This document shows positions 1,248 to 32,775 of a DNA stretch of 64,000 bases, piece after piece (position 1 is the first letter of the stretch; each line of letters starts with the position of its first letter). The DNA lies in IMG/VR virus record IMGVR_UViG_2875713109_000001; one strand, given 5' to 3'. A program made the position numbers and the translations under genes. The stretch comes from a virus (lineage: Duplodnaviria > Heunggongvirae > Uroviricota > Caudoviricetes). A model generated the notes under the pieces. That model saw only the letters and a program-made list of their open reading frames with translations. It made no database searches and had not been told where the DNA came from.

Positions 1248-1859
1248 TCAAAGAGAAAAACTAAAGCCCAGAAGGGAAGCCAAAGAACTTGAGGATTGGT
1301 TAAACGTGCTGTGCAATGCGAAGGTCATTGGGAATGACTTAAATTCCGTAACCTGATCCCGCGCATAGGTGACATCGCCGGTAGTGACCGGGAATACCGT
1401 CATCTCATTTTCCAGTTTGGTTAAGCCGGAAGACAGCAACCGATAAATACGCACATTGAGCAAATATTTAGACGGTATATTCCCGGTACCGTCCGGATTG
1501 ATCACCCGACTTTTTGCCGTCTTAAACCAGTCTAAAACGAGGCCATCAACGGTATCCCTGACCATCATTGTTATCTGCCCAGGCGAACGCTCCGTTGGTT
1601 GAAGGATATTCCCTCCGCCGATTTTAATCGTTTCATATTCGATGCTGTAATCGTGGTAGGTAATGTCTTTGGCAAAGAAGTCTGCCCCCTCCAGTCCATC
1701 AACTTCGACAGAGAACTGCCATCCTTGCGCGAACAGCATTTTGTTCATGATGATTGACGTCAGCTTACCAACTTCCCGCTCACCAACGCCGGAGCCAAAT
1801 AATGTCGTCGTTAATGCCGAAGATACATAAGACTTTACTGAAGCAACATTAAGCCCCAT
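1248..1859 (-). CDS. hypothetical protein (203 aa)
   Basis: ORF packed 10-15 bp from neighbours in same orientation. Confidence 0.45.
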   Translation of the reverse strand: MGLNVASVKSYVSSALTTTLFGSGVGEREVGKLTSIIMNKMLFAQGWQFSVEVDGLEGADFFAKDITYHDYSIEYETIKIGGGNILQPTERSPGQITMMVRDTVDGLVLDWFKTAKSRVINPDGTGNIPSKYLLNVRIYRLLSSGLTKLENEMTVFPVTTGDVTYARDQVTEFKSFPMTFALHSTFNQSSSSLASLLGFSFSL

Positions 1860-5610: not shown

Positions 5611-6411
5611 ATGCAACAAACATTCAATGCGGATATGAATATATCAAACCTTCATCAAAATGTCGATCCTTCAACCACTCTGCCTGTTATTTGTGGTGTT
5701 GAAATTACGACCGACCGCGCTGGCCGTTACAACCTTAATGCTCTACACAGAGCGAGCGGACTCGGTGCCCATAAAGCGCCAGCTCAATGGCTAAGAACGC
5801 TGTCAGCCAAACAGCTCATTGAAGAGCTTGAAAAAGAAACTATGCAGAATTGCATAGTTTCGTTCGAAGGCCGTGGCGGCGGCACTTTTGCACATGAATT
5901 GCTCGCAGTGGAGTACGCAGGTTGGATTTCTCCCGCGTTTCGGCTGAAGGTAAACCAGACATTTATCGACTATCGAGCTGGAAGATTACAACCTGCTATT
6001 CCGCAGAGCCTCCCAGAAGCTCTCCGTTTGGCTGCTGACCTGGCAGAGCAAAAGCAACGGCTGGAGCAAAAAATGCTGATGGATGCACCTAAAGTCGAAT
6101 TCGCCGAACGCGTTGCTACCGCCAGCGGGGTTCTAATCGGCAACTATGCCAAAGTGCTCGGCCTGGGCCAAAACTATCTCTTCACCTGGTTGCGTGATAA
6201 CGGAATTCTGATCGCAACCGGTGAACGCAGGAACGTCCCCAAACAAGAATACATATCCCGTGGGTATTTCACCCTTAAAGAAACCGTGATCGATACAAGC
6301 AATGGAAGCAGGATTTCTTTCACGACTCGTATAACCGGCAAAGGTCAGCAGTGGCTGATGAAGCGATTGCTTGATGCTGGTGTGCTGGTACCTGTCGCGG
6401 CAACGCGCTAA
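5611..6411 (+). CDS. kilA: KilA (KilA-N domain plus KilA-C domain)
   Basis: 266 aa as in P1 KilA; N-terminal KilA-N-like region; C-terminal domain homologous to Ant C-terminus; GGAGAAAAA SD. Confidence 0.8.
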   Translation: MQQTFNADMNISNLHQNVDPSTTLPVICGVEITTDRAGRYNLNALHRASGLGAHKAPAQWLRTLSAKQLIEELEKETMQNCIVSFEGRGGGTFAHELLAVEYAGWISPAFRLKVNQTFIDYRAGRLQPAIPQSLPEALRLAADLAEQKQRLEQKMLMDAPKVEFAERVATASGVLIGNYAKVLGLGQNYLFTWLRDNGILIATGERRNVPKQEYISRGYFTLKETVIDTSNGSRISFTTRITGKGQQWLMKRLLDAGVLVPVAATR

Positions 6412-6440
6412 CAGACGTAGTAAGAACCACCAGCATTGTA

Positions 6441-7286
6441 ATGCTGGCTAAAGTCACTTTCCTGAGCTGTATAACGATGAGCGATTTTACTTTTTCTGGC
6501 TATGAATTGGCTTGCTTTGTAACACACTCCGGTCTATCCCGTAGCGCCGGGCATATCCTGTCGCAATGTGCAAATCTCGCGGCAACAACCAGTGAATACT
6601 TCATTCACAAGCCTCACCGCTTGATCGCGGCAGAAACTGGTTATAGCCAATCAACCGTCGTTCGTGCATTCCGTGAAGCTGTAAACAAAGGAATCCTGTC
6701 TGTAGAGATTGTTATCGGCGATCACCGTGAACGTCGCGCTAACCTGTACCGGTTTACACCATCCTTTTTGGCCTACGCACAACAAGCCAAAAATGCGCTG
6801 ATTGAAAGCAAATTAAAGATCTCTTCAGCCGCAACCAAGGTTAAAGCTGTTCTCGCTAAGACATTGGCTTTATTTAATTTTTTATCCACACCCCCATGTC
6901 AAAATGATACCCCCTCCCCCTGTCAGGATGACGTGGCAATAAAGAATAAGAAGTCACAAGTTAAAAAAACAAAAAGATCAGTTTCCGGCGGTGCCGGAAC
7001 GACCAGACTCAAAAAATTGACTTCATGGATCGCTGAGGCAAAAGCAAAGGCTGACAATCTGCGGTTATCCAAAAAACGCGCTCAAAAACATGAGTTCAAG
7101 CAGAAAGTAGAGGCGGCAGCGCGGAAATATGCTTACCTGAAGAACAAGCGTTCTCCTGATATTGACGGGGTATCAAACTTCGATAATTTGCCGCATTGCA
7201 TGACGGTAAACGAAGCTCTTAATGCGGTTTTAGCCAAAAATAAAGATAACGAACAATGGGGTATACCGGCAGGATTCAGAGGGTAA
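6441..7286 (+). CDS. repL: RepL lytic-replicon initiator (oriL expected inside the gene)
   Basis: 281 aa, size and position immediately after kilA match P1 RepL; basic K/R-rich middle region; alternative start at 6477. Confidence 0.7.
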   Translation: MLAKVTFLSCITMSDFTFSGYELACFVTHSGLSRSAGHILSQCANLAATTSEYFIHKPHRLIAAETGYSQSTVVRAFREAVNKGILSVEIVIGDHRERRANLYRFTPSFLAYAQQAKNALIESKLKISSAATKVKAVLAKTLALFNFLSTPPCQNDTPSPCQDDVAIKNKKSQVKKTKRSVSGGAGTTRLKKLTSWIAEAKAKADNLRLSKKRAQKHEFKQKVEAAARKYAYLKNKRSPDIDGVSNFDNLPHCMTVNEALNAVLAKNKDNEQWGIPAGFRG

Positions 7287-7454: not shown

Positions 7455-8159
7455 ATGTTGAACCGAAGAACATTTAATGTATTCTGCGATGAATCCTGTC
7501 ACCTACTAAATGATCATAATAAAGTCATGGTATTGGGTGCGCTTTGGTGCCCTGGCACTATCACAAAAAAAATTGCTAGAGACATCAAGGAATTAAAATT
7601 AAAACACAATCTAAAACCTGATTTCGAAATCAAGTGGACTAAAGTATCTGCGTCCAAGGTTGAATTTTACTTAGATGTCGTAGATTACTTCTTCAGCAAC
7701 CCAGCATTGCGCTTTAGAGGTGTTGTTGTTCCTGATAAAGAGCAACTGGACCATGCTCGATTCCATCAAGATCATAATACTTTCTATTATAAGATGTTTT
7801 TTTATGTCTTAAAAAACATAATAGAAAGTAACAACACATACAATATCTACCTAGATATAAAAGATACTTTAGGTATTGAAAAAATTGAGAAATTAAGAGG
7901 AGTTCTTCACAATGATCGCTATGATTACAATCATGAGTCGATAAACAGAATTCAACATATACGATCTCATGAAGTGCAACAATTGCAGCTAACGGATCTT
8001 TTCATTGGTGCGTTAGGCTACGTTCATCGAGGAATGAATAGCAACGCGGGAAAAATCCAAGTCATAAACAGGATAAAATCACATACAAACAGGGATTTAC
8101 TAAAAAGCACTCTTCCAACAGAAAGTAAATTTAATATTTTCGTGTGGGAGGCTCGCTGA
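7455..8159 (+). CDS. DUF3800-like protein (234 aa), AT-rich cargo gene
   Basis: ORF with GTGGAG SD; N-terminal FNVFCDESCH and C-terminal QLQLTDLFIGAL resemble the conserved ends of DUF3800 proteins (from memory, not searched); local GC far below flanks. Confidence 0.5.
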   Translation: MLNRRTFNVFCDESCHLLNDHNKVMVLGALWCPGTITKKIARDIKELKLKHNLKPDFEIKWTKVSASKVEFYLDVVDYFFSNPALRFRGVVVPDKEQLDHARFHQDHNTFYYKMFFYVLKNIIESNNTYNIYLDIKDTLGIEKIEKLRGVLHNDRYDYNHESINRIQHIRSHEVQQLQLTDLFIGALGYVHRGMNSNAGKIQVINRIKSHTNRDLLKSTLPTESKFNIFVWEAR

Positions 8160-8623
8160 TGCTTCAAATGCCAGATTTATTGTACTTCAATGGAAGTTGG
8201 CAAGAGTATATAGACGATGTATATTATGTTGTCAGAGAAGACATTTTAATCTCTAATATAACGTTTAAGGGTCTCCCTGTTCGGTTACGTTATTCACCGG
8301 AATATGATGGGAAAGAGTTCGGATTTTGGCATTTAGTATCAGAGGGAAAAATAGAAGAAGAACGAATACCTGATCTTGAACGGTGTAAGCGGATCCGCTG
8401 GATCGCGCATATGATAAGGAATTATAACCATTCCGATATATCATGTTGGTCTGAAAGACGAGGACCAACTGAAGAATGGGTAATCTGGAACGAGTGTGAA
8501 AACTACGTTGTTGTGCTATCCGCACGTAGAGACTATTGGCTTCTTAAAACAGCCTATGTTGTAACCTATAACAGTAAAATCAGAACACTCAAACAAAGCA
8601 GAAAAAGAGCGCTTGGGACATAA
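8159..8623 (+). CDS. hypothetical protein (154 aa) translationally coupled to DUF3800-like gene
   Basis: ATG overlaps upstream stop (TGATG) with GGGAGG SD; YD...(13)...LVSEGK spacing is compatible with a PD-(D/E)xK nuclease core (speculative). Confidence 0.45.
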   Translation: MLQMPDLLYFNGSWQEYIDDVYYVVREDILISNITFKGLPVRLRYSPEYDGKEFGFWHLVSEGKIEEERIPDLERCKRIRWIAHMIRNYNHSDISCWSERRGPTEEWVIWNECENYVVVLSARRDYWLLKTAYVVTYNSKIRTLKQSRKRALGT

Positions 8624-8630
8624 AAAAGCT

Positions 8631-8662
8631 GAACCCGACACATATTGCTATGTATCGGGTTC
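8631..8662. terminator. hairpin between convergent gene B and minus-strand ORF
   Basis: gaacccga...tcgggttc inverted repeat just after gene B stop, A-run upstream. Confidence 0.4.
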
Positions 8663-8789
8663 GATCGCTCTTTCTACACATGGTAGATGAGTAAGGCAAA
8701 TCTAACCGATCTACTTTAGCTTTTCAATAGCTAGCTATAACTTTCCGCACATATTCTTCTGATAATTCCAGTATGGCTGTTGGGTTTTC

Positions 8790-9086
8790 TTATGCTTTTC
8801 TGCGCAGAGGTGCACATTTATTCAGCAACAATAAATGTAATTCTTTGTTATTCCTAAGTATTTCGACACACCAATATCGTAACGTGTTCACTTCAAGTGT
8901 AGCCAGCACCTTATGTCGAAGTCCTCCCTCCCCTGCACATAACGATGACTGACATTCTGCTAAGGCACATAACCATGTATTGGCATCATAGAGAATCCAA
9001 TAATGCTCCTCTGAAATAGTTTTGCATCCAATTATTTCGAATCTTCGTTCTATCGTTTCAGGAGAGTATGAAAAATCAATTTCCAT
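8790..9086 (-). CDS. hypothetical Cys-rich small protein (98 aa)
   Basis: ORF only; weak RBS; sits between a minus-strand terminator and the cassette. Confidence 0.25.
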   Translation of the reverse strand: MEIDFSYSPETIERRFEIIGCKTISEEHYWILYDANTWLCALAECQSSLCAGEGGLRHKVLATLEVNTLRYWCVEILRNNKELHLLLLNKCAPLRRKA

Positions 9087-9691: not shown

Positions 9692-10273
9692 TTACTGGAA
9701 CGCCCGAACAATATCGGAGCTGTTATATATCGAAGAACCGGTCAACTGGAGGTTGACGGTGTTTTTCAGGAAATGCCCATTGCTGTCCCTGGGCGCATCG
9801 AGATCGAAACTTATGTCCTGGATAGCGACATCAATGATGTTGATCCGGCGACCAATGTTTAGCGTCACACGCTCCGGGATTCGACCACCAATACTGGCAT
9901 CTTTAAGTTCCGGGCTAATCATCGCTGACAATGCGGCGATAGCTCCTGAAACCTCCGTGAATGGGTCAAACAAAGCGATGAAAGTTACTGGCAGCGTGAA
10001 AGTCGGCGGTGTTCCCCCTTCCCAAACCATTAAGCTGTTCCAACGGGCAACCGACGTTGTTTCAGTACCAACCTGCGCAAAACCACTGAAGGCACCAGCA
10101 ACAGATCCCATGGACATACCGGTAAACGGCGCTTCCCAATTCTGGGCCATGTTCATTGCCGCTCCCTGGCTGATATATCCGGTAACCTGGTACTGAGAGT
10201 TCGTTAAAGTAACTTTCAGATATGGCGATACACCGTCAGCCTGGCTGTAAACCCCATAAGGTATAGGTGCCAT
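9692..10273 (-). CDS. virion-associated hypothetical protein (193 aa)
   Basis: ORF in structural array. Confidence 0.4.
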   Translation of the reverse strand: MAPIPYGVYSQADGVSPYLKVTLTNSQYQVTGYISQGAAMNMAQNWEAPFTGMSMGSVAGAFSGFAQVGTETTSVARWNSLMVWEGGTPPTFTLPVTFIALFDPFTEVSGAIAALSAMISPELKDASIGGRIPERVTLNIGRRINIIDVAIQDISFDLDAPRDSNGHFLKNTVNLQLTGSSIYNSSDIVRAFQ

Positions 10274-26933: not shown

Positions 26934-27219
26934 TATTTGGTTGTAACACGGCGTCTGGCACATGCGTCGTTAGCGGTCTGGTGACGTTAAAAGGGGGGAA
27001 CCTTGCCCCTAGCTCAGGCAACGAACCAGGTAGCCGGAATGTGCAAGCCACCGTTTGTTGTTTCTCGGGTAAAGGGATTCACCATCCTGGCGATTCGGTG
27101 TGACAGCCGGGAAGAGTCCGGCGCATTAATCCTGATTTTCTGGTGATGACTCATATCGTTAGGAGTGATTTGAGTATGCCGATTATATCTGACATTCAGC
27201 ACGCCTGGGTGGAGTGCTA

Positions 27220-28584
27220 ATGTCTGCATCCCCTCTTGAATCCATGCCAAATTCCCTTAGTGCAGAACAAGCTGTACTTGGTGGCTTAATGCTTGATAAC
27301 TGCCGCTGGGATGAAGTTGCAGATCGTATAGTTGCTGATGATTTTTATACCAGTGCTCATCGTGAAATTTTCAGTGAGATGGAGAGGTTATTAAGTCATG
27401 GCAAACCGATTGATTTGATAACACTTGCTGAAGCACTTGAACAGAACGGTAAATTAGAACGCGCCGGTGGTTTTGCGTACCTTGCGGAGATGTCAAAGAA
27501 CACGCCCAGCGCGGCAAATATTTGTGCTTATGCGGATATCGTTCGTGAACGCGCGGTTGTTCGTGAAATGATTTCCGTCGCAAATGAAATAGCCGAAGCT
27601 GGATATGCGCAGGATGGCAGGGGCAGCAATGAATTGCTAGATATGGCCGAGCGCCGCGTTTTTGAAATAGCTGAAAAACGACAAAAGAGCGGTAGTGGTC
27701 CAAAAGATATCGCCAGCATTCTCGATGCAACGGTATCTCGCATAGAAGAGTTGTTTCAGCGACCACATGATGGTGTAACGGGGCTTGATACGGGATTTAC
27801 CGATCTCAATAAGAAGACGGCAGGGCTTCAGCCGTCCGATCTCATCATTGTCGCCGCCCGCCCATCTATGGGGAAGACCACGTTTGCGATGAATCTCGTC
27901 GAAAATGCCGCAGTTCGTAACGATAAGCCCGTATTGGTTTTTAGCCTTGAGATGCCGAGCCACCAGCTGATGATGCGCTCACTGGCTTCTCTTGCACGCG
28001 TTGATCAGACTCGTATTCGGACAGGGCAACTTAACGACGAGGATTGGGCGCGGGTTTCTGGCGCAATGGGTATTCTGTTGGACAAGCAGAATATTTTTAT
28101 TGATGACTCAAGCGCCCTGACACCTACAGAGCTTCGTTCCCGCGCTCGTCGTGTTTATAAAGAAAATGGTGGTTTGAGCATGATTATGATCGACTACCTG
28201 CAACTTATGCGCGTCCCCGAGCTGCAAGATAACCGAACGCTGGAAATTGCCGAGATTTCTCGCTCACTGAAGGCGTTGGCGAAGGAATTACAAGTACCGG
28301 TGGTGGCATTGTCACAACTTAATCGATCGCTTGAACAGCGTGCGGACAAACGACCGGTAAATTCAGATTTACGTGAATCAGGAGCAATTGAGCAGGACGC
28401 AGACCTGATCATGTTTCTGTATCGCGACGAAGTTTATCACCCGGATAGCGAAATGAAGGGCATTGCCGAGGTAATTATCGGAAAGCAACGAAATGGCCCA
28501 ATTGGCACGGTGAGATTGGCTTTTAACGGCCAATACTCACGGTTTGATAACTATGCTGGTGCTGACTGGCAAGAGGATTATTAA
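27220..28584 (+). CDS. ban: DnaB-family replicative helicase Ban
   Basis: DnaB N-terminal domain and RecA-like domain with Walker A PSMGKTTF; GGTGGAG SD before ATG 27220 (track start 27214 is GTG). Confidence 0.85.
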   Translation: MSASPLESMPNSLSAEQAVLGGLMLDNCRWDEVADRIVADDFYTSAHREIFSEMERLLSHGKPIDLITLAEALEQNGKLERAGGFAYLAEMSKNTPSAANICAYADIVRERAVVREMISVANEIAEAGYAQDGRGSNELLDMAERRVFEIAEKRQKSGSGPKDIASILDATVSRIEELFQRPHDGVTGLDTGFTDLNKKTAGLQPSDLIIVAARPSMGKTTFAMNLVENAAVRNDKPVLVFSLEMPSHQLMMRSLASLARVDQTRIRTGQLNDEDWARVSGAMGILLDKQNIFIDDSSALTPTELRSRARRVYKENGGLSMIMIDYLQLMRVPELQDNRTLEIAEISRSLKALAKELQVPVVALSQLNRSLEQRADKRPVNSDLRESGAIEQDADLIMFLYRDEVYHPDSEMKGIAEVIIGKQRNGPIGTVRLAFNGQYSRFDNYAGADWQEDY

Positions 28585-29582
28585 TGCAATGGAATGAGGA
28601 AAAGCCGATGAACATCCTGATCATTGGGCGAAAATTTGAAGCTATCAGTGATGTGAAAACATATACGGAAATGTGGGCTTATAACCTGGCCTGCGCCTTT
28701 AGTGAGGCAGGGGTAACATTGCAATACCATCGTCCATATTCCCCTGGCGTCGAAAGCCCGGAGGATTATGTTGAAGCTGTGTTGACTGCTGCGACCGCAT
28801 GTTCTGCGAAGGCCATTTTGGCACCAGGATTGAGGTATTTTACTACGGTACCCAGGGAAATAGGCATGCAACTGTGTCGCCGATTCTCTGGATGGGTAGC
28901 CCAGGTATATGACGGTTCTATGCTGGATTCGGCACCAGTCGATATTACTTTTACTGTCCGCGATGATACCTGGCGGTACCTGGATAATCCCGGCAGGTTA
29001 GAGCGTCATAATCGTTTTAACAAACATGTTGGATGGGCAGCGAATCAGGAGCTGTTCCATCTGGAAACCAAAACAGACGATATTCTGCGTATTTTTGTAG
29101 ACCACGCTGCATTTGATGTTAGTGGTTTTGATCACTCCTTAAGTATCCTTATGAACCTTCAGCGTCTGACCGTTCCGTATGAGGCCAGAACGTTGACTGA
29201 TGACGGATTGGTTACCATTGATCCGGGGAATATTTCGGTAACTCCATACAGGCGGACGCCGGTGCCAGCAACCGAATTTGCAGCTGAATTGCGTAAGAGT
29301 GACGTTTTTATCGTTACGCATCCCGAAAGCCTTGGATTAACTGTTCTTGAGGCGGCAATGTGTGGAGCGTTGATATTAACTCCGCCCGATTGCCTTCCGC
29401 CGGATCGCCTGGAGTTGGTGAACCATATGGTTATCAAGTCGCGGATTGATTGGGATGAGGTTATTGCTCGCGTTGATCGCGTGAAAAATGCTGAAAAGGT
29501 CCAGTGTCACACCTGGTCGGCAATTGCGGAAAAGATGCTTGAGACGTTTATCACGCAGAAACCGTCGCGCGGTAACGGATAA
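28584..29582 (+). CDS. GT-B (family 1-like) glycosyltransferase-like protein
   Basis: N-terminal NILIIG Rossmann start; C-terminal ESLGLTVLEAAMCGALILTPP resembles GT1 EX7E region; overlaps ban stop. Confidence 0.45.
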   Translation: MQWNEEKPMNILIIGRKFEAISDVKTYTEMWAYNLACAFSEAGVTLQYHRPYSPGVESPEDYVEAVLTAATACSAKAILAPGLRYFTTVPREIGMQLCRRFSGWVAQVYDGSMLDSAPVDITFTVRDDTWRYLDNPGRLERHNRFNKHVGWAANQELFHLETKTDDILRIFVDHAAFDVSGFDHSLSILMNLQRLTVPYEARTLTDDGLVTIDPGNISVTPYRRTPVPATEFAAELRKSDVFIVTHPESLGLTVLEAAMCGALILTPPDCLPPDRLELVNHMVIKSRIDWDEVIARVDRVKNAEKVQCHTWSAIAEKMLETFITQKPSRGNG

Positions 29583-29604
29583 AAAATTGAACCCGTCATA
29601 ACAG

Positions 29605-29628
29605 AAAAGCCCGATCGCCGGGCTTTTC
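29605..29628. terminator. bidirectional terminator-like hairpin
   Basis: aaaagcccg...cgggctttt between convergent genes. Confidence 0.4.

Positions 29629-32775
<3,147 letters not shown>

What the first reader, a model, noticed from the sequence alone, without database searches (positions are those of the whole stretch)
28584..29582. GT-B glycosyltransferase-like gene immediately downstream of ban
The N-terminal Rossmann start and C-terminal EX7E-like motif suggest a family-1 glycosyltransferase. With the DxD protein at 37374 this gives the phage two candidate sugar transferases. Targets are unknown (LPS core is the P1 receptor).
Basis: partly seen in the sequence, partly recalled or inferred. 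Interest (0 to 1): 0.3.

Follow-up and report, generated by a model that had tools for sequence, protein, structure and literature searches.

The report
P1 dbn: predicted GT-B sugar transferase
The gene after the phage P1 helicase gene ban is the known, dispensable gene dbn, and structure prediction confirms it looks like a sugar-transferring enzyme that travels with three other predicted sugar transferases of the same phage, though what they decorate is still untested.

Summary
A 332-codon ORF lies at 28584..29582 (+) and overlaps the ban stop codon by one base. The window is a P1-type phage and the ORF is P1 dbn, called glt in P7. GenBank already annotates it as "possible glycosyltransferase", so the finding itself is not new.

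- **Fold:** AlphaFold (pLDDT 87) plus Foldseek place it in the GT-B fold. An E248-x7-E256 motif is invariant in close homologues and nearly so across the family.
- **Atypical features:** the family is small and isolated, with 370 cluster representatives among 1.8 billion. Dbn scores below Pfam's cut-off. An invariant Asp173-His174 appears to replace the usual basic phosphate-binding residues.
- **New context:** in two other phage lineages dbn homologues lie in one overlapping gene block with homologues of P1 pmgO, pmgP and pmgQ. In a third lineage they lie about 6 kb from that trio. In bacteria, relatives lie directly after a WaaZ-like Kdo-transferase gene in Kdo/capsule loci.
- **Published genetics:** deletions of all these genes are non-essential.

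Best reading: Dbn is an accessory fourth transferase of a phage glycosylation cassette, perhaps acting on Kdo-containing envelope glycan. The target is inferred only.

The parts
28584..29582 (+). dbn ORF as annotated in GenBank for P1 (332 aa, stop included). It is a predicted GT-B-fold, GT4-like glycosyltransferase.
   Evidence: ORF. Identity to P1 dbn, P7 glt and the RCS47 'putative glycosyltransferase'. AlphaFold model. Foldseek. Pfam Glycos_transf_1 at E 3.3e-5 (below cut-off).
28608..29582 (+). Probable conserved reading frame starting at Met9 (324 aa). GAGGA lies at 28596..28600, 7 nt upstream of this ATG.
   Evidence: All divergent homologues start 'MKILIIG', aligned to Met9. P1-like contigs L093-L101 have about 300 bp inserted after ban and start at this ATG behind AAGGAG. 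Sequence.
28571..28586 (+). ban stop / dbn start overlap (ATTAATG) with AAGAGGA at 28571..28577. This arrangement suggests translational coupling of the annotated start to ban.
   Evidence: Read directly from the sequence.
29325..29351 (+). Codons for E248-x7-E256 ('ESLGLTVLE'), the GT4-type EX7E motif at the N-terminus of helix 252-259 of the C-terminal domain.
   Evidence: Both Glu invariant in alignment A1. In A2, E256 is invariant and E248 is kept in at least 90%. The motif aligns to the EX7E of AmGGT (8xsg) and MshA (3c4q).
29100..29105 (+). Codons for D173-H174, invariant in the whole family. They sit at the end of the first strand of the C-terminal domain, where GT4 enzymes normally carry Gly-Arg of the diphosphate-binding Arg/Lys pair.
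   Evidence: Invariant in 81 representatives. Strand 168-173 in the model. The positional equivalence to the GT4 Arg is my inference from topology, not a superposition.
29603..29629 (.). G+C-rich hairpin flanked by A and T runs, lying between convergent dbn and baseplate gene 5. It is a likely bidirectional intrinsic terminator.
   Evidence: strand folding gives -17.6 kcal/mol (z -3.6) on the + strand and -18.7 kcal/mol (z -2.5) on the - strand. The simple terminator scan missed it.
27214..28584 (+). ban, the DnaB-like replicative helicase. It is the upstream gene of the same C1-controlled operon and is context, not part of the enzyme.
   Evidence: ORF. P1 annotation with operator Oban and promoters.
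35517..36179 (+). pmgO (220 aa), an MptE-like / WaaZ-like / sialyltransferase-like protein and a partner gene of the cassette.
   Evidence: P1 annotation. PHROG 4603 'alpha-2,3-sialyltransferase' at E 4e-74. Pfam MptE-like at E 5.7e-5, below cut-off. Homologues lie in the same block as dbn homologues in L019 and L008, and about 6 kb from them in L020.
36077..36703 (+). pmgP (208 aa), a paralogue of pmgO with an MptE / Cst-II-like fold and a partner gene of the cassette.
   Evidence: hhalign of PmgP against PmgO gives 96% probability. AlphaFold pLDDT 94. The top Foldseek hits are MptE (8sd5) and Cst-I/Cst-II. Homologues 54-55% identical lie in the same gene block as the dbn homologues: directly upstream in L008, one gene away in L019.
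It is annotated as a glycosyltransferase and is a partner gene of the cassette.
   Evidence: P1 annotation. PHROG 1962 'glycosyltransferase' at E 1.5e-127. Homologues directly follow and overlap the dbn homologue in L019 (48% identity) and L008 (33%).

Best explanation
The ORF is phage P1 dbn. It encodes a soluble cytoplasmic enzyme with two Rossmann-like domains (GT-B fold). It carries the GT4-type Glu-x7-Glu motif that, in characterised relatives, holds the ribose of a nucleotide-sugar donor and the transferred sugar.

It most likely transfers one sugar from an activated donor onto a growing glycan. It is not a stand-alone enzyme. It is the optional fourth member of a conserved phage glycosylation cassette.

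- **Core of the cassette:** PmgO and PmgP, two paralogues related to the Kdo transferase WaaZ and to Cst-type sialyltransferases, plus PmgQ.
- **Layout in P1:** the cassette is split. dbn lies behind ban in a C1-repressed early operon. pmgO-pmgP-(ppp)-pmgQ lie about 6 kb away, behind a late promoter and C1 operators.
- **Bacterial relatives:** dbn relatives sit immediately after a WaaZ-like gene in ABC-transporter capsule loci or Kdo-synthesis loci.

I therefore infer that Dbn adds a sugar to, or next to, a Kdo residue. In E. coli the obvious Kdo-bearing acceptor is the inner core of nascent LPS at the cytoplasmic face of the inner membrane. Such a change would alter the surface that P1 and other phages bind.

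**Shown:** the ORF, its conservation, the fold, the motif, the gene linkage and dispensability.
**Inferred:** catalytic activity, donor, acceptor and biological role.

Rough sub-confidences:
- GT-B fold: 0.9.
- Active glycosyltransferase: 0.75.
- Same pathway as PmgO/P/Q: 0.65.
- Kdo-containing acceptor such as LPS core: 0.3.
For: **Fold**
- AlphaFold pLDDT 87.4, pTM 0.85, with alternating strand-helix elements in two domains.
- All top PDB matches have the GT-B fold and most are GT4 enzymes: GlgM 6tvp E 4e-9, PimB' 3oka TM 0.65, BshA, PglA, LPS glycosyltransferase 5n80.
- The best viral match is a Tupanvirus glycosyltransferase at E 4e-18, TM 0.76/0.79.

**Sequence**
- Pfam Glycos_transf_1, Glyco_trans_1_2 and Glyco_trans_1_4 are the only hits.
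- Distant family members P0101, P0150 and P0120 pass the Pfam cut-offs.
- The family profile hits AmGGT (8xsg, E 6.6e-5) and MshA across the EX7E segment.
- E256 is invariant and E248 is kept in at least 90% of 81 representatives.

**Cassette linkage in phages**
- L019 (lambdoid): pmgO-like, pmgP-like, a 189-aa gene, dbn-like and pmgQ-like are contiguous and overlapping.
- L008: pmgP-like, dbn-like, pmgQ-like and pmgO-like are contiguous.
- L020, L004 and L102 (about 95-kb Citrobacter-type elements): the trio lies about 6 kb from dbn-like.
- L107: the trio occurs without dbn, between the lysis genes and terminase.

**Bacterial context**
- A WaaZ-like gene lies directly upstream of the dbn-like gene in L009, L014, L016 and L018, and one short ORF away in L005.
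- L018 also carries KpsC/S-type Capsule_synth, Poly_export and the ABC transporter.
- L014 also carries KdsA, KdsB-KdsC and a KpsF-type isomerase.
- A profile of those neighbours matches E. coli WaaZ at E 1.6e-17.

**PmgO and PmgP**
- Pfam MptE-like at E 5.7e-5 and 3.3e-4. PHROG label 'alpha-2,3-sialyltransferase'.
- The PmgP model's best PDB matches are MptE and Cst-I/Cst-II.

**Precedent**
- WaaZ adds a third Kdo, WaaS then adds rhamnose, and those LPS glycoforms have a truncated outer core (review PMC4651636).

**Accessory nature**
- In-frame deletions of dbn, pmgO, pmgP, pmgQ and ppp give no plaquing defect (PMC9024508).
- CRISPRi knock-down gives an EOP of about 1 (PMC10695390).
Against: - No biochemical or phenotypic datum exists for Dbn.
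- Dbn is below the Pfam gathering score (23.9 against 26.4 bits). NCBIfam gives nothing significant.
- The glycine-rich N-terminal loop of GT4 is absent. The basic Arg/Lys pair that binds the donor diphosphate in GT4 enzymes seems to be replaced by the invariant Asp173-His174. The donor could therefore be unusual, or the protein could have a different chemistry.
- The PmgO/PmgP link to WaaZ is weak at sequence level: hhalign 67-75% probability and Foldseek E 1e-3 to 0.1 with TM 0.4-0.5.
- The Kdo/LPS acceptor is guilt by association from distant relatives (30-43% identity). P1 is not known to change host LPS.
- Both P1 operons are C1-repressed. The genes are therefore off in lysogens, which fits poorly with classical lysogenic conversion.
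- Some family members lie in loci without any WaaZ-like gene (L012, L017).
Confidence: 0.6

Rival explanations
1. Dbn, with PmgO/P/Q, glycosylates phage proteins such as tail fibre, sheath or capsid during morphogenesis. MptE-domain Maf enzymes glycosylate flagellin in a comparable way, and some mycobacteriophages glycosylate their virions.
For: - The partner genes lie in a late-promoter operon among tail and head genes and were named 'putative morphogenetic'.
- In lambdoid phages the cassette lies between the lysis genes and terminase, in late-transcribed DNA.
- The MptE-like fold of PmgP is the fold of the Maf flagellin glycosyltransferases (my knowledge of that family).
Against: - Deletions give no plaquing defect.
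- Bacterial relatives sit in polysaccharide loci, not protein-glycosylation loci.
- dbn itself is in the early ban operon.
- No report of P1 virion glycosylation was found; the P1 structure and knockout paper has no occurrence of 'glycosyl' in its main text.
Confidence: 0.13
2. Dbn glycosylates phage DNA, or a modified base in it, as an anti-restriction measure. The GT-B DNA glucosyltransferases of T4 and the arabinosyl/glycosyl transferases of 5-hydroxycytosine phages work this way.
For: - dbn overlaps the stop of the replicative helicase gene ban and shares its early, C1-controlled operon.
- The second-best PDB match is the glycosyltransferase of phage HY126 (9ir0, E 2.3e-8). That phage carries arabinosylated 5-hydroxycytosine (PMC13326640).
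Against: - The 9ir0 match (TM 0.53/0.49) is no better than the matches to ordinary GT4 enzymes.
- The delta-dbn phage shows no change in anti-restriction activity.
- In other phages dbn is not next to replication genes but inside the transferase cassette.
- Bacterial relatives are in capsule loci.
- P1 is not known to make a hydroxylated or hydroxymethylated pyrimidine acceptor (established knowledge, not tested here).
Confidence: 0.04
3. Dbn has the GT-B fold but is not a glycosyltransferase. It could be a sugar-nucleotide epimerase-like enzyme, a transferase of a non-sugar group, or a catalytically dead scaffold for the PmgO/P/Q enzymes.
For: - UDP-GlcNAc 2-epimerases, which are GT-B but not transferases, appear among the matches (7vz6, 3ot5, 1f6d).
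- The canonical GT4 basic pair and glycine loop are missing, and Asp-His is invariant in their place.
- The protein scores below the Pfam cut-off.
Against: - Both Glu of the EX7E motif and the surrounding 'ESxGLxxLEA' are strongly conserved, as in active GT4 enzymes.
- Epimerase hits rank below transferase hits, with lower TM (0.48-0.55).
- Strong purifying selection and about 16 invariant or near-invariant residues argue for an active site.
Confidence: 0.1
4. Dbn acts alone on the LPS outer core, the P1 receptor, independently of PmgO/P/Q.
For: - GT4 enzymes such as WaaG act on LPS core, and an LPS-biosynthesis glycosyltransferase (5n80) is among the structural matches.
- In P1 dbn is physically separate from the other transferase genes.
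Against: - Every dbn homologue found on a long phage contig has pmgP- and pmgQ-like genes on the same contig, often adjacent and overlapping.
- Bacterial relatives are paired with a WaaZ-like gene.
- The Dbn profile does not detect WaaG or WaaB of E. coli.
Confidence: 0.08

Closest known systems
P1 Dbn (YP_006544.1) / P7 Glt (AAQ07543.1) / RCS47 'putative glycosyltransferase, Dbn'
   Same: This is the same gene: 96.6-100% nucleotide identity over the full 999 bases and the same position between ban and baseplate gene 5. The depositors already wrote 'function unknown, possible glycosyltransferase'.
   Different: Nothing essential differs. The window allele is 100% identical to MH422554, MH445380 and MH445381, and 2.2% diverged from the reference P1. 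The deposited P7 copy carries a TGG-to-TGA change at codon 32 and was annotated from an internal start.
CAZy GT4 / Pfam Glycos_transf_1 retaining GT-B glycosyltransferases (PimA, PimB', WaaG, MshA, BshA, GlgM)
   Same: Both have a two-domain GT-B fold. The EX7E motif sits on the loop and helix after the fourth strand of the C-terminal domain. Both are soluble or peripheral cytoplasmic enzymes acting on lipid-linked or soluble acceptors.
   Different: - Dbn is smaller (324-332 aa against about 360-440).
- It scores below the Pfam cut-off.
- It has no glycine-rich loop after strand 1.
- It has an invariant Asp-His where GT4 has Gly-Arg, and no conserved Lys follows.
- The family profile recovers only 370 representatives and does not run into bulk GT4.
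E. coli WaaZ + WaaS (third-Kdo transferase followed by a rhamnosyltransferase acting on that Kdo)
   Same: The logic is the same: a WaaZ-type enzyme is paired with a second transferase, and the pair acts on a Kdo-containing glycan. Bacterial dbn relatives sit directly after WaaZ homologues. Adding KdoIII goes with outer-core truncation.
   Different: Dbn shows no detectable sequence similarity to WaaS. PmgO and PmgP are only remote relatives of WaaZ. No effect of P1 on LPS has been shown.
Phage Gtr (GtrABC) and other O-antigen-modifying lysogenic-conversion modules
   Same: Both are accessory, non-essential gene sets of temperate phages that are predicted to alter a surface glycan.
   Different: Gtr systems use a bactoprenol-linked sugar, a flippase and a periplasmic membrane transferase (GT-C). 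They are expressed in lysogens. The P1 set consists of soluble cytoplasmic GT-B, GT-A-like and MptE-like proteins without membrane segments (maximum hydropathy 1.55). It sits behind C1-repressed and late promoters.

Membership tests
GT-B fold superfamily | Two Rossmann-like beta/alpha/beta domains, with a C-terminal helix crossing back to the N-terminal domain | tested here: met
   The AlphaFold model (pLDDT 87.4) has strands and helices alternating in two blocks, 10-148 and 168-305, plus a terminal helix 311-324. In Foldseek, 76 PDB matches reach E<=1e-3 and the top 50 are all GT-B proteins.
CAZy GT4 / Pfam PF00534 Glycos_transf_1 | Match to the family profile at or above the curated cut-off | tested here: not met
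   PF00534 scores 23.9 bits against a cut-off of 26.4, covering residues 229-315 only. Remote family members P0101 (29.9 bits) and P0150 (28.4 bits) do pass. The link is therefore transitive, not direct.
CAZy GT4 / Pfam PF00534 Glycos_transf_1 | E-x7-E motif in the C-terminal domain | tested here: met
   E248 and E256 are both invariant in A1. In A2, E256 is invariant and E248 is kept in at least 90%. The motif aligns with the EX7E of AmGGT and MshA.
CAZy GT4 / Pfam PF00534 Glycos_transf_1 | Basic Arg/Lys pair after the first strand of the C-terminal domain that binds the donor diphosphate (e.g. PimA R196/K202; recalled from the literature) | tested here: inconclusive
   The loop after strand 168-173 reads D173-H174-AAFDVSGFD. 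Asp-His is invariant and no basic residue is conserved. The equivalence rests on topology only: no coordinates were available for superposition, and hhalign to WaaG/WaaB failed.
CAZy GT4 / Pfam PF00534 Glycos_transf_1 | Glycine-rich loop after the first strand of the N-terminal domain | tested here: not met
   The sequence after strand 10-14 is 'GRKFEAISDVKTYTEMW'. Only one Gly is present, and it is not conserved in the 81-sequence alignment.
CAZy GT4 / Pfam PF00534 Glycos_transf_1 | Transfer of a sugar from a nucleotide sugar with retention of anomeric configuration | not testable with these tools
   This needs an enzyme assay and product NMR.
Phage DNA glycosyltransferases (T4 alpha/beta-GT, HY126-type) | Co-occurrence with enzymes that make the modified pyrimidine acceptor, and an anti-restriction phenotype | tested here: not met
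   The neighbours in five phage lineages are other transferase-like genes, not nucleotide-modifying enzymes. The delta-dbn phage has unchanged anti-restriction. I did not scan the whole window specifically for pyrimidine hydroxylases.
Known anti-phage defence systems (PADLOC) | Match to any defence-system protein model | tested here: not met
   There are no hits for Dbn, PmgO, PmgP, Ppp or PmgQ at E<=0.01.
MptE-like / WaaZ (GT73) / Cst (GT42) superfamily (for the partner proteins PmgO and PmgP, not Dbn) | Profile match and fold match to MptE, WaaZ or Cst enzymes | tested here: inconclusive
   - Pfam MptE-like at E 5.7e-5 and 3.3e-4, below the 34.6-bit cut-off.
- Many PmgP homologues carry a precomputed PF01973 hit.
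- hhalign to WaaZ-like proteins gives 67-75% probability.
- For the PmgP model (pLDDT 94), 12 of the top 13 PDB matches are MptE (8sd5) or Cst-I/Cst-II chains, but at E 1e-3 to 0.1 and TM 0.35-0.5.

The most novel reading that the evidence does not exclude
P1 and many temperate enterobacterial phages (P1-like phage-plasmids, Citrobacter-type phage-plasmids and lambdoid prophages, including one found in Citrobacter rodentium) carry a previously unrecognised cytoplasmic glycosylation cassette. It consists of two WaaZ/sialyltransferase-like enzymes plus PmgQ, with the Dbn GT-B enzyme as an optional fourth step. In this reading the cassette uses host CMP-Kdo and a second nucleotide sugar to build a short Kdo-containing branch on the LPS inner core, or on the Kdo linker of capsules, during lytic growth. 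That would remodel phage receptors from the inside. Such a system would differ in enzymes, location and timing from the Gtr and O-antigen acetylase conversion modules.
Probability: 0.2. Interest if true: 0.6.

Novelty: already known. Interest (0 to 1): 0.3.

Why it matters
As submitted, the finding re-derives a GenBank annotation that the records attribute to the published P1 genome analysis, so on its own it matters little.

What adds value is the context. The four P1 genes dbn, pmgO, pmgP and pmgQ are all dispensable and have no assigned role. They turn out to be one conserved, mobile transferase set whose bacterial relatives work in Kdo-containing capsule loci.

That turns the vague question 'what does dbn do' into a concrete, cheap experiment. 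The deletion strains already exist. One would compare LPS, capsule and virion glycans, and phage adsorption, with and without the cassette.

If the cassette does rewrite the LPS inner core, it would be a new route by which temperate phages edit their own receptor. It would also be relevant to P1 transduction host range.

Tried and rejected
- **PDB by sequence.** The close-homologue profile gave a top hit to KtrA (E 1e-4). This is a generic Rossmann match, inflated by a tandem-duplicated chain, and I discarded it. The broader profile reached only the EX7E segment of AmGGT and MshA.
- **NCBIfam.** It gave only a non-significant sucrose-phosphate-synthase domain hit.
- **PHROG.** PHROG 2518 has no function assigned.
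- **PADLOC.** There were no hits for any of the five proteins.
- **Genome contigs.** With the close alignment it found only a P1-like contig and a 209-bp fragment.
- **Viral contigs.** The close alignment returned only P1-like phages. P0011 found nothing. P0008 and P0015 added four loci.
- **Second word-index search.** Using the broad alignment added almost nothing.
- **Residue mapping.** hhalign of the Dbn family against single WaaG and WaaB sequences failed. The Dbn HMM does not detect any E. coli Waa protein. The missing Arg/Lys pair is therefore an inference from topology.
- **More transferases in the window.** I looked for a further MptE/WaaZ-like gene, or a homologue of the 316-aa capsule-locus neighbour. 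Only pmgO and pmgP scored, and weakly.
- **Transition transferases.** I considered the capsule 'transition transferases' (PMC11666461) as a model. Those are TagF-like glycerol-phosphate transferases, so I dropped the comparison.
- **The P1 genome paper.** The Lobocka 2004 paper is not held in the library. Its view is therefore taken from the GenBank notes.
- **Terminator scan.** The simple scan missed the hairpin after dbn. Folding confirmed it.


Full report
**What is at the coordinates**

The ORF listing shows one long ORF at 28584..29582 on the + strand (332 aa). Its ATG shares a base with the TAA of the preceding 456-aa DnaB-type helicase ORF at 27214..28584 (ATTAATG). Downstream, on the opposite strand, lie baseplate and tail genes.

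Megablast against phage records identifies the window as a P1-type phage (Punavirus). The 999 bases are 100% identical to three 'P1' records. They are 97.8% identical to dbn of reference P1 (NC_005856), 98.1% to glt of P7 and 96.6% to RCS47.

The depositors' notes read as follows:
- P1: 'function unknown, possible glycosyltransferase'.
- P7: 'encodes putative glycosyltransferase'.
- RCS47: 'putative glycosyltransferase, Dbn'.
- RefSeq copy of RCS47: 'glycosyltransferase family 4 protein'.

Both the observation and its interpretation therefore re-derive an existing annotation.

**Is it a real gene, and where does it start?**

Eighty-three P1-like loci keep the frame open. Among 52 distinct full-length alleles there are 79 synonymous and 47 non-synonymous codon variants. 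None touches a residue that is invariant in the wider family. This is purifying selection.

The annotated start at 28584 has AAGAGGA seven bases upstream and overlaps the ban stop. However, every divergent homologue starts 'MKILIIG', aligned to Met9. A group of P1-like contigs (L093-L101) also has about 300 bp inserted between ban and dbn, and there the only start is that Met, behind AAGGAG. The conserved protein is therefore probably 324 aa, starting at 28608, which has its own GAGGA.

A strong hairpin at 29603..29629 separates dbn from convergent gene 5 and looks like a bidirectional terminator (-17.6 kcal/mol, z -3.6). The protein has no hydrophobic segment (maximum 19-residue hydropathy 1.55).

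**Fold and motifs**

Sequence profiles alone are weak:
- Pfam Glycos_transf_1 scores E 3.3e-5 but 23.9 bits, under the 26.4-bit cut-off, and covers residues 229-315 only.
- PHROG 2518 has no function.
- NCBIfam gives nothing significant.

An AlphaFold model built on 19 homologues is confident (pLDDT 87.4, pTM 0.85). It shows two strand-helix domains plus a terminal helix.

Foldseek against the PDB gives 76 matches at E<=1e-3, and the top 50 are all GT-B proteins:
- Mostly GT4 transferases: GlgM, PimB', BshA, PglA, an LPS glycosyltransferase (5n80), and also GtfC/Gtf3 and SenB.
- One phage DNA-modifying transferase (9ir0).
- Lower down, UDP-GlcNAc 2-epimerases.

Against predicted viral structures the best match is a Tupanvirus glycosyltransferase (E 4e-18, TM 0.76/0.79).

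The E-x7-E pair is E248/E256 in 'THPESLGLTVLEA'. A single such pair is what chance gives (1.4 expected). It is nevertheless strongly conserved: both Glu are invariant in 19 close homologues, and across 81 representatives E256 is invariant and E248 is kept in at least 90%. It also aligns to the EX7E of AmGGT and MshA.

**How typical is it?**

It is not very typical.
- An exhaustive profile search of 1.84 billion cluster representatives found only 370 relatives at E<=1e-3. The family does not merge into the enormous GT4 family. A few remote members do pass Pfam's cut-offs, and one is fused to a methyltransferase.
- Residues conserved throughout are D110, G150-W151, D173-H174, D183, F242, T245-H246, E248-S249, G251, E256, G261, W290 and W311.
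- D173-H174 ends the first strand of the C-terminal domain. GT4 enzymes have Gly-Arg there, followed by a Lys. From my knowledge of PimA, WaaG and MshA, these bind the donor diphosphate. No conserved basic residue follows in Dbn.
- The glycine-rich loop after the first N-terminal strand is also missing.
- I could not superpose coordinates, and hhalign to WaaG and WaaB failed. This departure is therefore an inference, but it leaves the nature of the donor open.

**Context: the main new result**

In P1 dbn looks isolated. Its homologues elsewhere are not.

*Phage loci*
- L019, a lambdoid contig: pmgO-like, pmgP-like (54-55% identity to the window gene), a 189-aa gene with a weak nucleotide-sugar-transferase hit, dbn-like, and pmgQ-like (48%). 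All are contiguous and overlapping.
- L008, a second phage contig: pmgP-like, dbn-like, pmgQ-like, pmgO-like, again contiguous and overlapping.
- L020, L004 and L102, Citrobacter-type elements of about 95 kb: the pmgO/P/Q trio lies about 6 kb from the dbn homologue.
- L107, a lambdoid prophage contig whose PmgP-like protein is also recorded from Citrobacter rodentium: the trio occurs without dbn, between the lysis genes and terminase.

The PmgP family is also much larger than the Dbn family. The trio is therefore the core, and Dbn is an optional fourth enzyme.

*The corresponding window genes*
- pmgO at 35517..36179.
- pmgP at 36077..36703.
- ppp, a phosphatase gene, lies between pmgP and pmgQ in P1 only.

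**What the partners are**

- PmgO belongs to PHROG 4603 'alpha-2,3-sialyltransferase', and PmgQ to PHROG 1962 'glycosyltransferase'.
- PmgO and PmgP are paralogues (hhalign 96%).
- Both give sub-threshold Pfam MptE-like hits. Many PmgP homologues carry a precomputed PF01973 hit.
- A confident PmgP model (pLDDT 94) has as its best PDB matches the archaeal MptE enzyme and the Campylobacter sialyltransferases Cst-II and Cst-I. The scores are weak (E 1e-3 to 0.1, TM 0.35-0.5).

**Bacterial relatives**

More distant Dbn relatives (30-43% identity) lie in polysaccharide loci. In each locus below, an MptE-like/WaaZ_KDO_III gene lies just upstream of the dbn-like gene: immediately upstream in four loci, and one short ORF away in L005.
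- L018: KpsC/S-type Capsule_synth, Poly_export, ABC transporter.
- L014: KdsA, KdsB-KdsC, KpsF-type isomerase.
- L005, from a Colwellia MAG: Poly_export.
- L009 and L016.

A profile of these neighbours matches E. coli K-12 WaaZ at E 1.6e-17. WaaZ adds the third Kdo of the inner core. WaaS then adds rhamnose, and these glycoforms have a truncated outer core (PMC4651636).

Not all relatives follow the pattern. L012 is a GT2/epimerase locus with two Dbn paralogues, and L017 is phage-like with methyltransferases.

**Genetics and regulation from the literature and the P1 record**

- In-frame deletions of dbn, pmgO, pmgP, pmgQ and ppp were among 24 knock-outs with no plaquing defect and no change in anti-restriction (PMC9024508).
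- CRISPRi gives an EOP of 1.3 for dbn and 0.7-1.4 for the others (PMC10695390).
- dbn sits in the ban operon behind the C1 operator Oban, with predicted internal promoters.
- pmgN-pmgQ sit behind the late promoter LPpmgL and the C1 operator Oppp.
- The genes are therefore accessory, and are repressed in lysogens but on during lytic growth.
- None of the five proteins matches a PADLOC defence model.

**Most likely mechanism**

Dbn is a cytoplasmic GT-B transferase that adds one sugar within a short pathway run by PmgO, PmgP and PmgQ. Three observations suggest that the acceptor carries Kdo:
- The pairing with WaaZ-type enzymes in both phages and bacteria.
- The presence of the full Kdo pathway in one bacterial locus.
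- The universal availability of CMP-Kdo in the hosts.

In E. coli the LPS inner core is the obvious candidate, and changes there are known to go with outer-core truncation, where P1 adsorbs. This last step is inference only.

The rivals are listed with their tests in the Rival explanations section. They are virion-protein glycosylation, DNA glycosylation, a non-transferase GT-B function, and a solitary outer-core transferase.

**Verdict**

The gene is dispensable and of unknown target, so interest is modest. The added value is the linkage of dbn to pmgO, pmgP and pmgQ and to Kdo/capsule loci, which makes a testable hypothesis.

Noticed in passing
window 35517..38075 (pmgO, pmgP, ppp, pmgQ): Three P1 genes annotated 'putative morphogenetic' are predicted transferases. 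PmgO and PmgP are MptE/WaaZ/Cst-like, and PmgQ falls in the PHROG 'glycosyltransferase' family. Together they form a mobile trio found in lambdoid prophages and phage-plasmids. The phosphatase gene ppp sits inside the trio only in P1. pmgO and pmgP overlap by 103 nt in different frames.
   Followed up: partly
L002 (P7 AF503408) 1501..1640, equivalent to window 28677..28679: The deposited P7 sequence has TGG changed to TGA at codon 32 of dbn/glt. This explains why P7 glt was annotated from an internal start (287 aa) lacking the first strand and helix. It is either a pseudogene in that stock or a sequencing error.
   Followed up: yes
L093..L101 (IMG/VR P1-like contigs), about 9700..10000 of each locus: A subset of P1-like phages carries about 300 bp of extra DNA between the ban stop and dbn. 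This removes the ban/dbn overlap and the first eight codons. I did not examine the content of the insert.
   Followed up: partly
L005 5713..5904 and 6001..6702 (Colwellia sp. MAG; same in L006, L007): The Dbn-like gene of this capsule locus is split into a 63-aa N-terminal ORF and a 233-aa C-terminal ORF in several independent assemblies. It is a likely pseudogene or a programmed or assembly frameshift.
   Followed up: no
L012 3358..4362 and 7954..8994: One metagenomic polysaccharide locus carries two Dbn-family paralogues together with two GT2 genes, a methyltransferase, an epimerase and GlmS, but no WaaZ-like gene. The family is therefore not restricted to Kdo contexts.
   Followed up: no
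L104 (IMGVR GVMAG-M-3300017963-53) 6001..6936; BFVD A0A6N1NPH0: Dbn-family members also occur in giant viruses. A giant-virus MAG carries one at 24.5% identity over 330 aa. A Tupanvirus glycosyltransferase is the best structural match.
   Followed up: no
L019 9435..10004: In the lambdoid cassette a fifth gene (189 aa) sits between the pmgP-like and dbn-like genes. It has weak Pfam Nucleotid_trans and Mannosyl_trans3 hits and no homologue in the window.
   Followed up: partly
L014 4177..5127, L018 6294..7247, L005 2827..4733: A conserved gene of 316-319 aa with no Pfam hit precedes the WaaZ-like/Dbn-like pair in three capsule-type loci. It often follows a large Glycos_transf_1 protein of about 700 aa. 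There is no homologue in the window.
   Followed up: partly
RefSeq/NCBI product names for PmgP homologues (NC_005856 gp089): The typo 'norphogenetic protein' from the original P1 record has spread as the product name of hundreds of homologues in NCBI.
   Followed up: no
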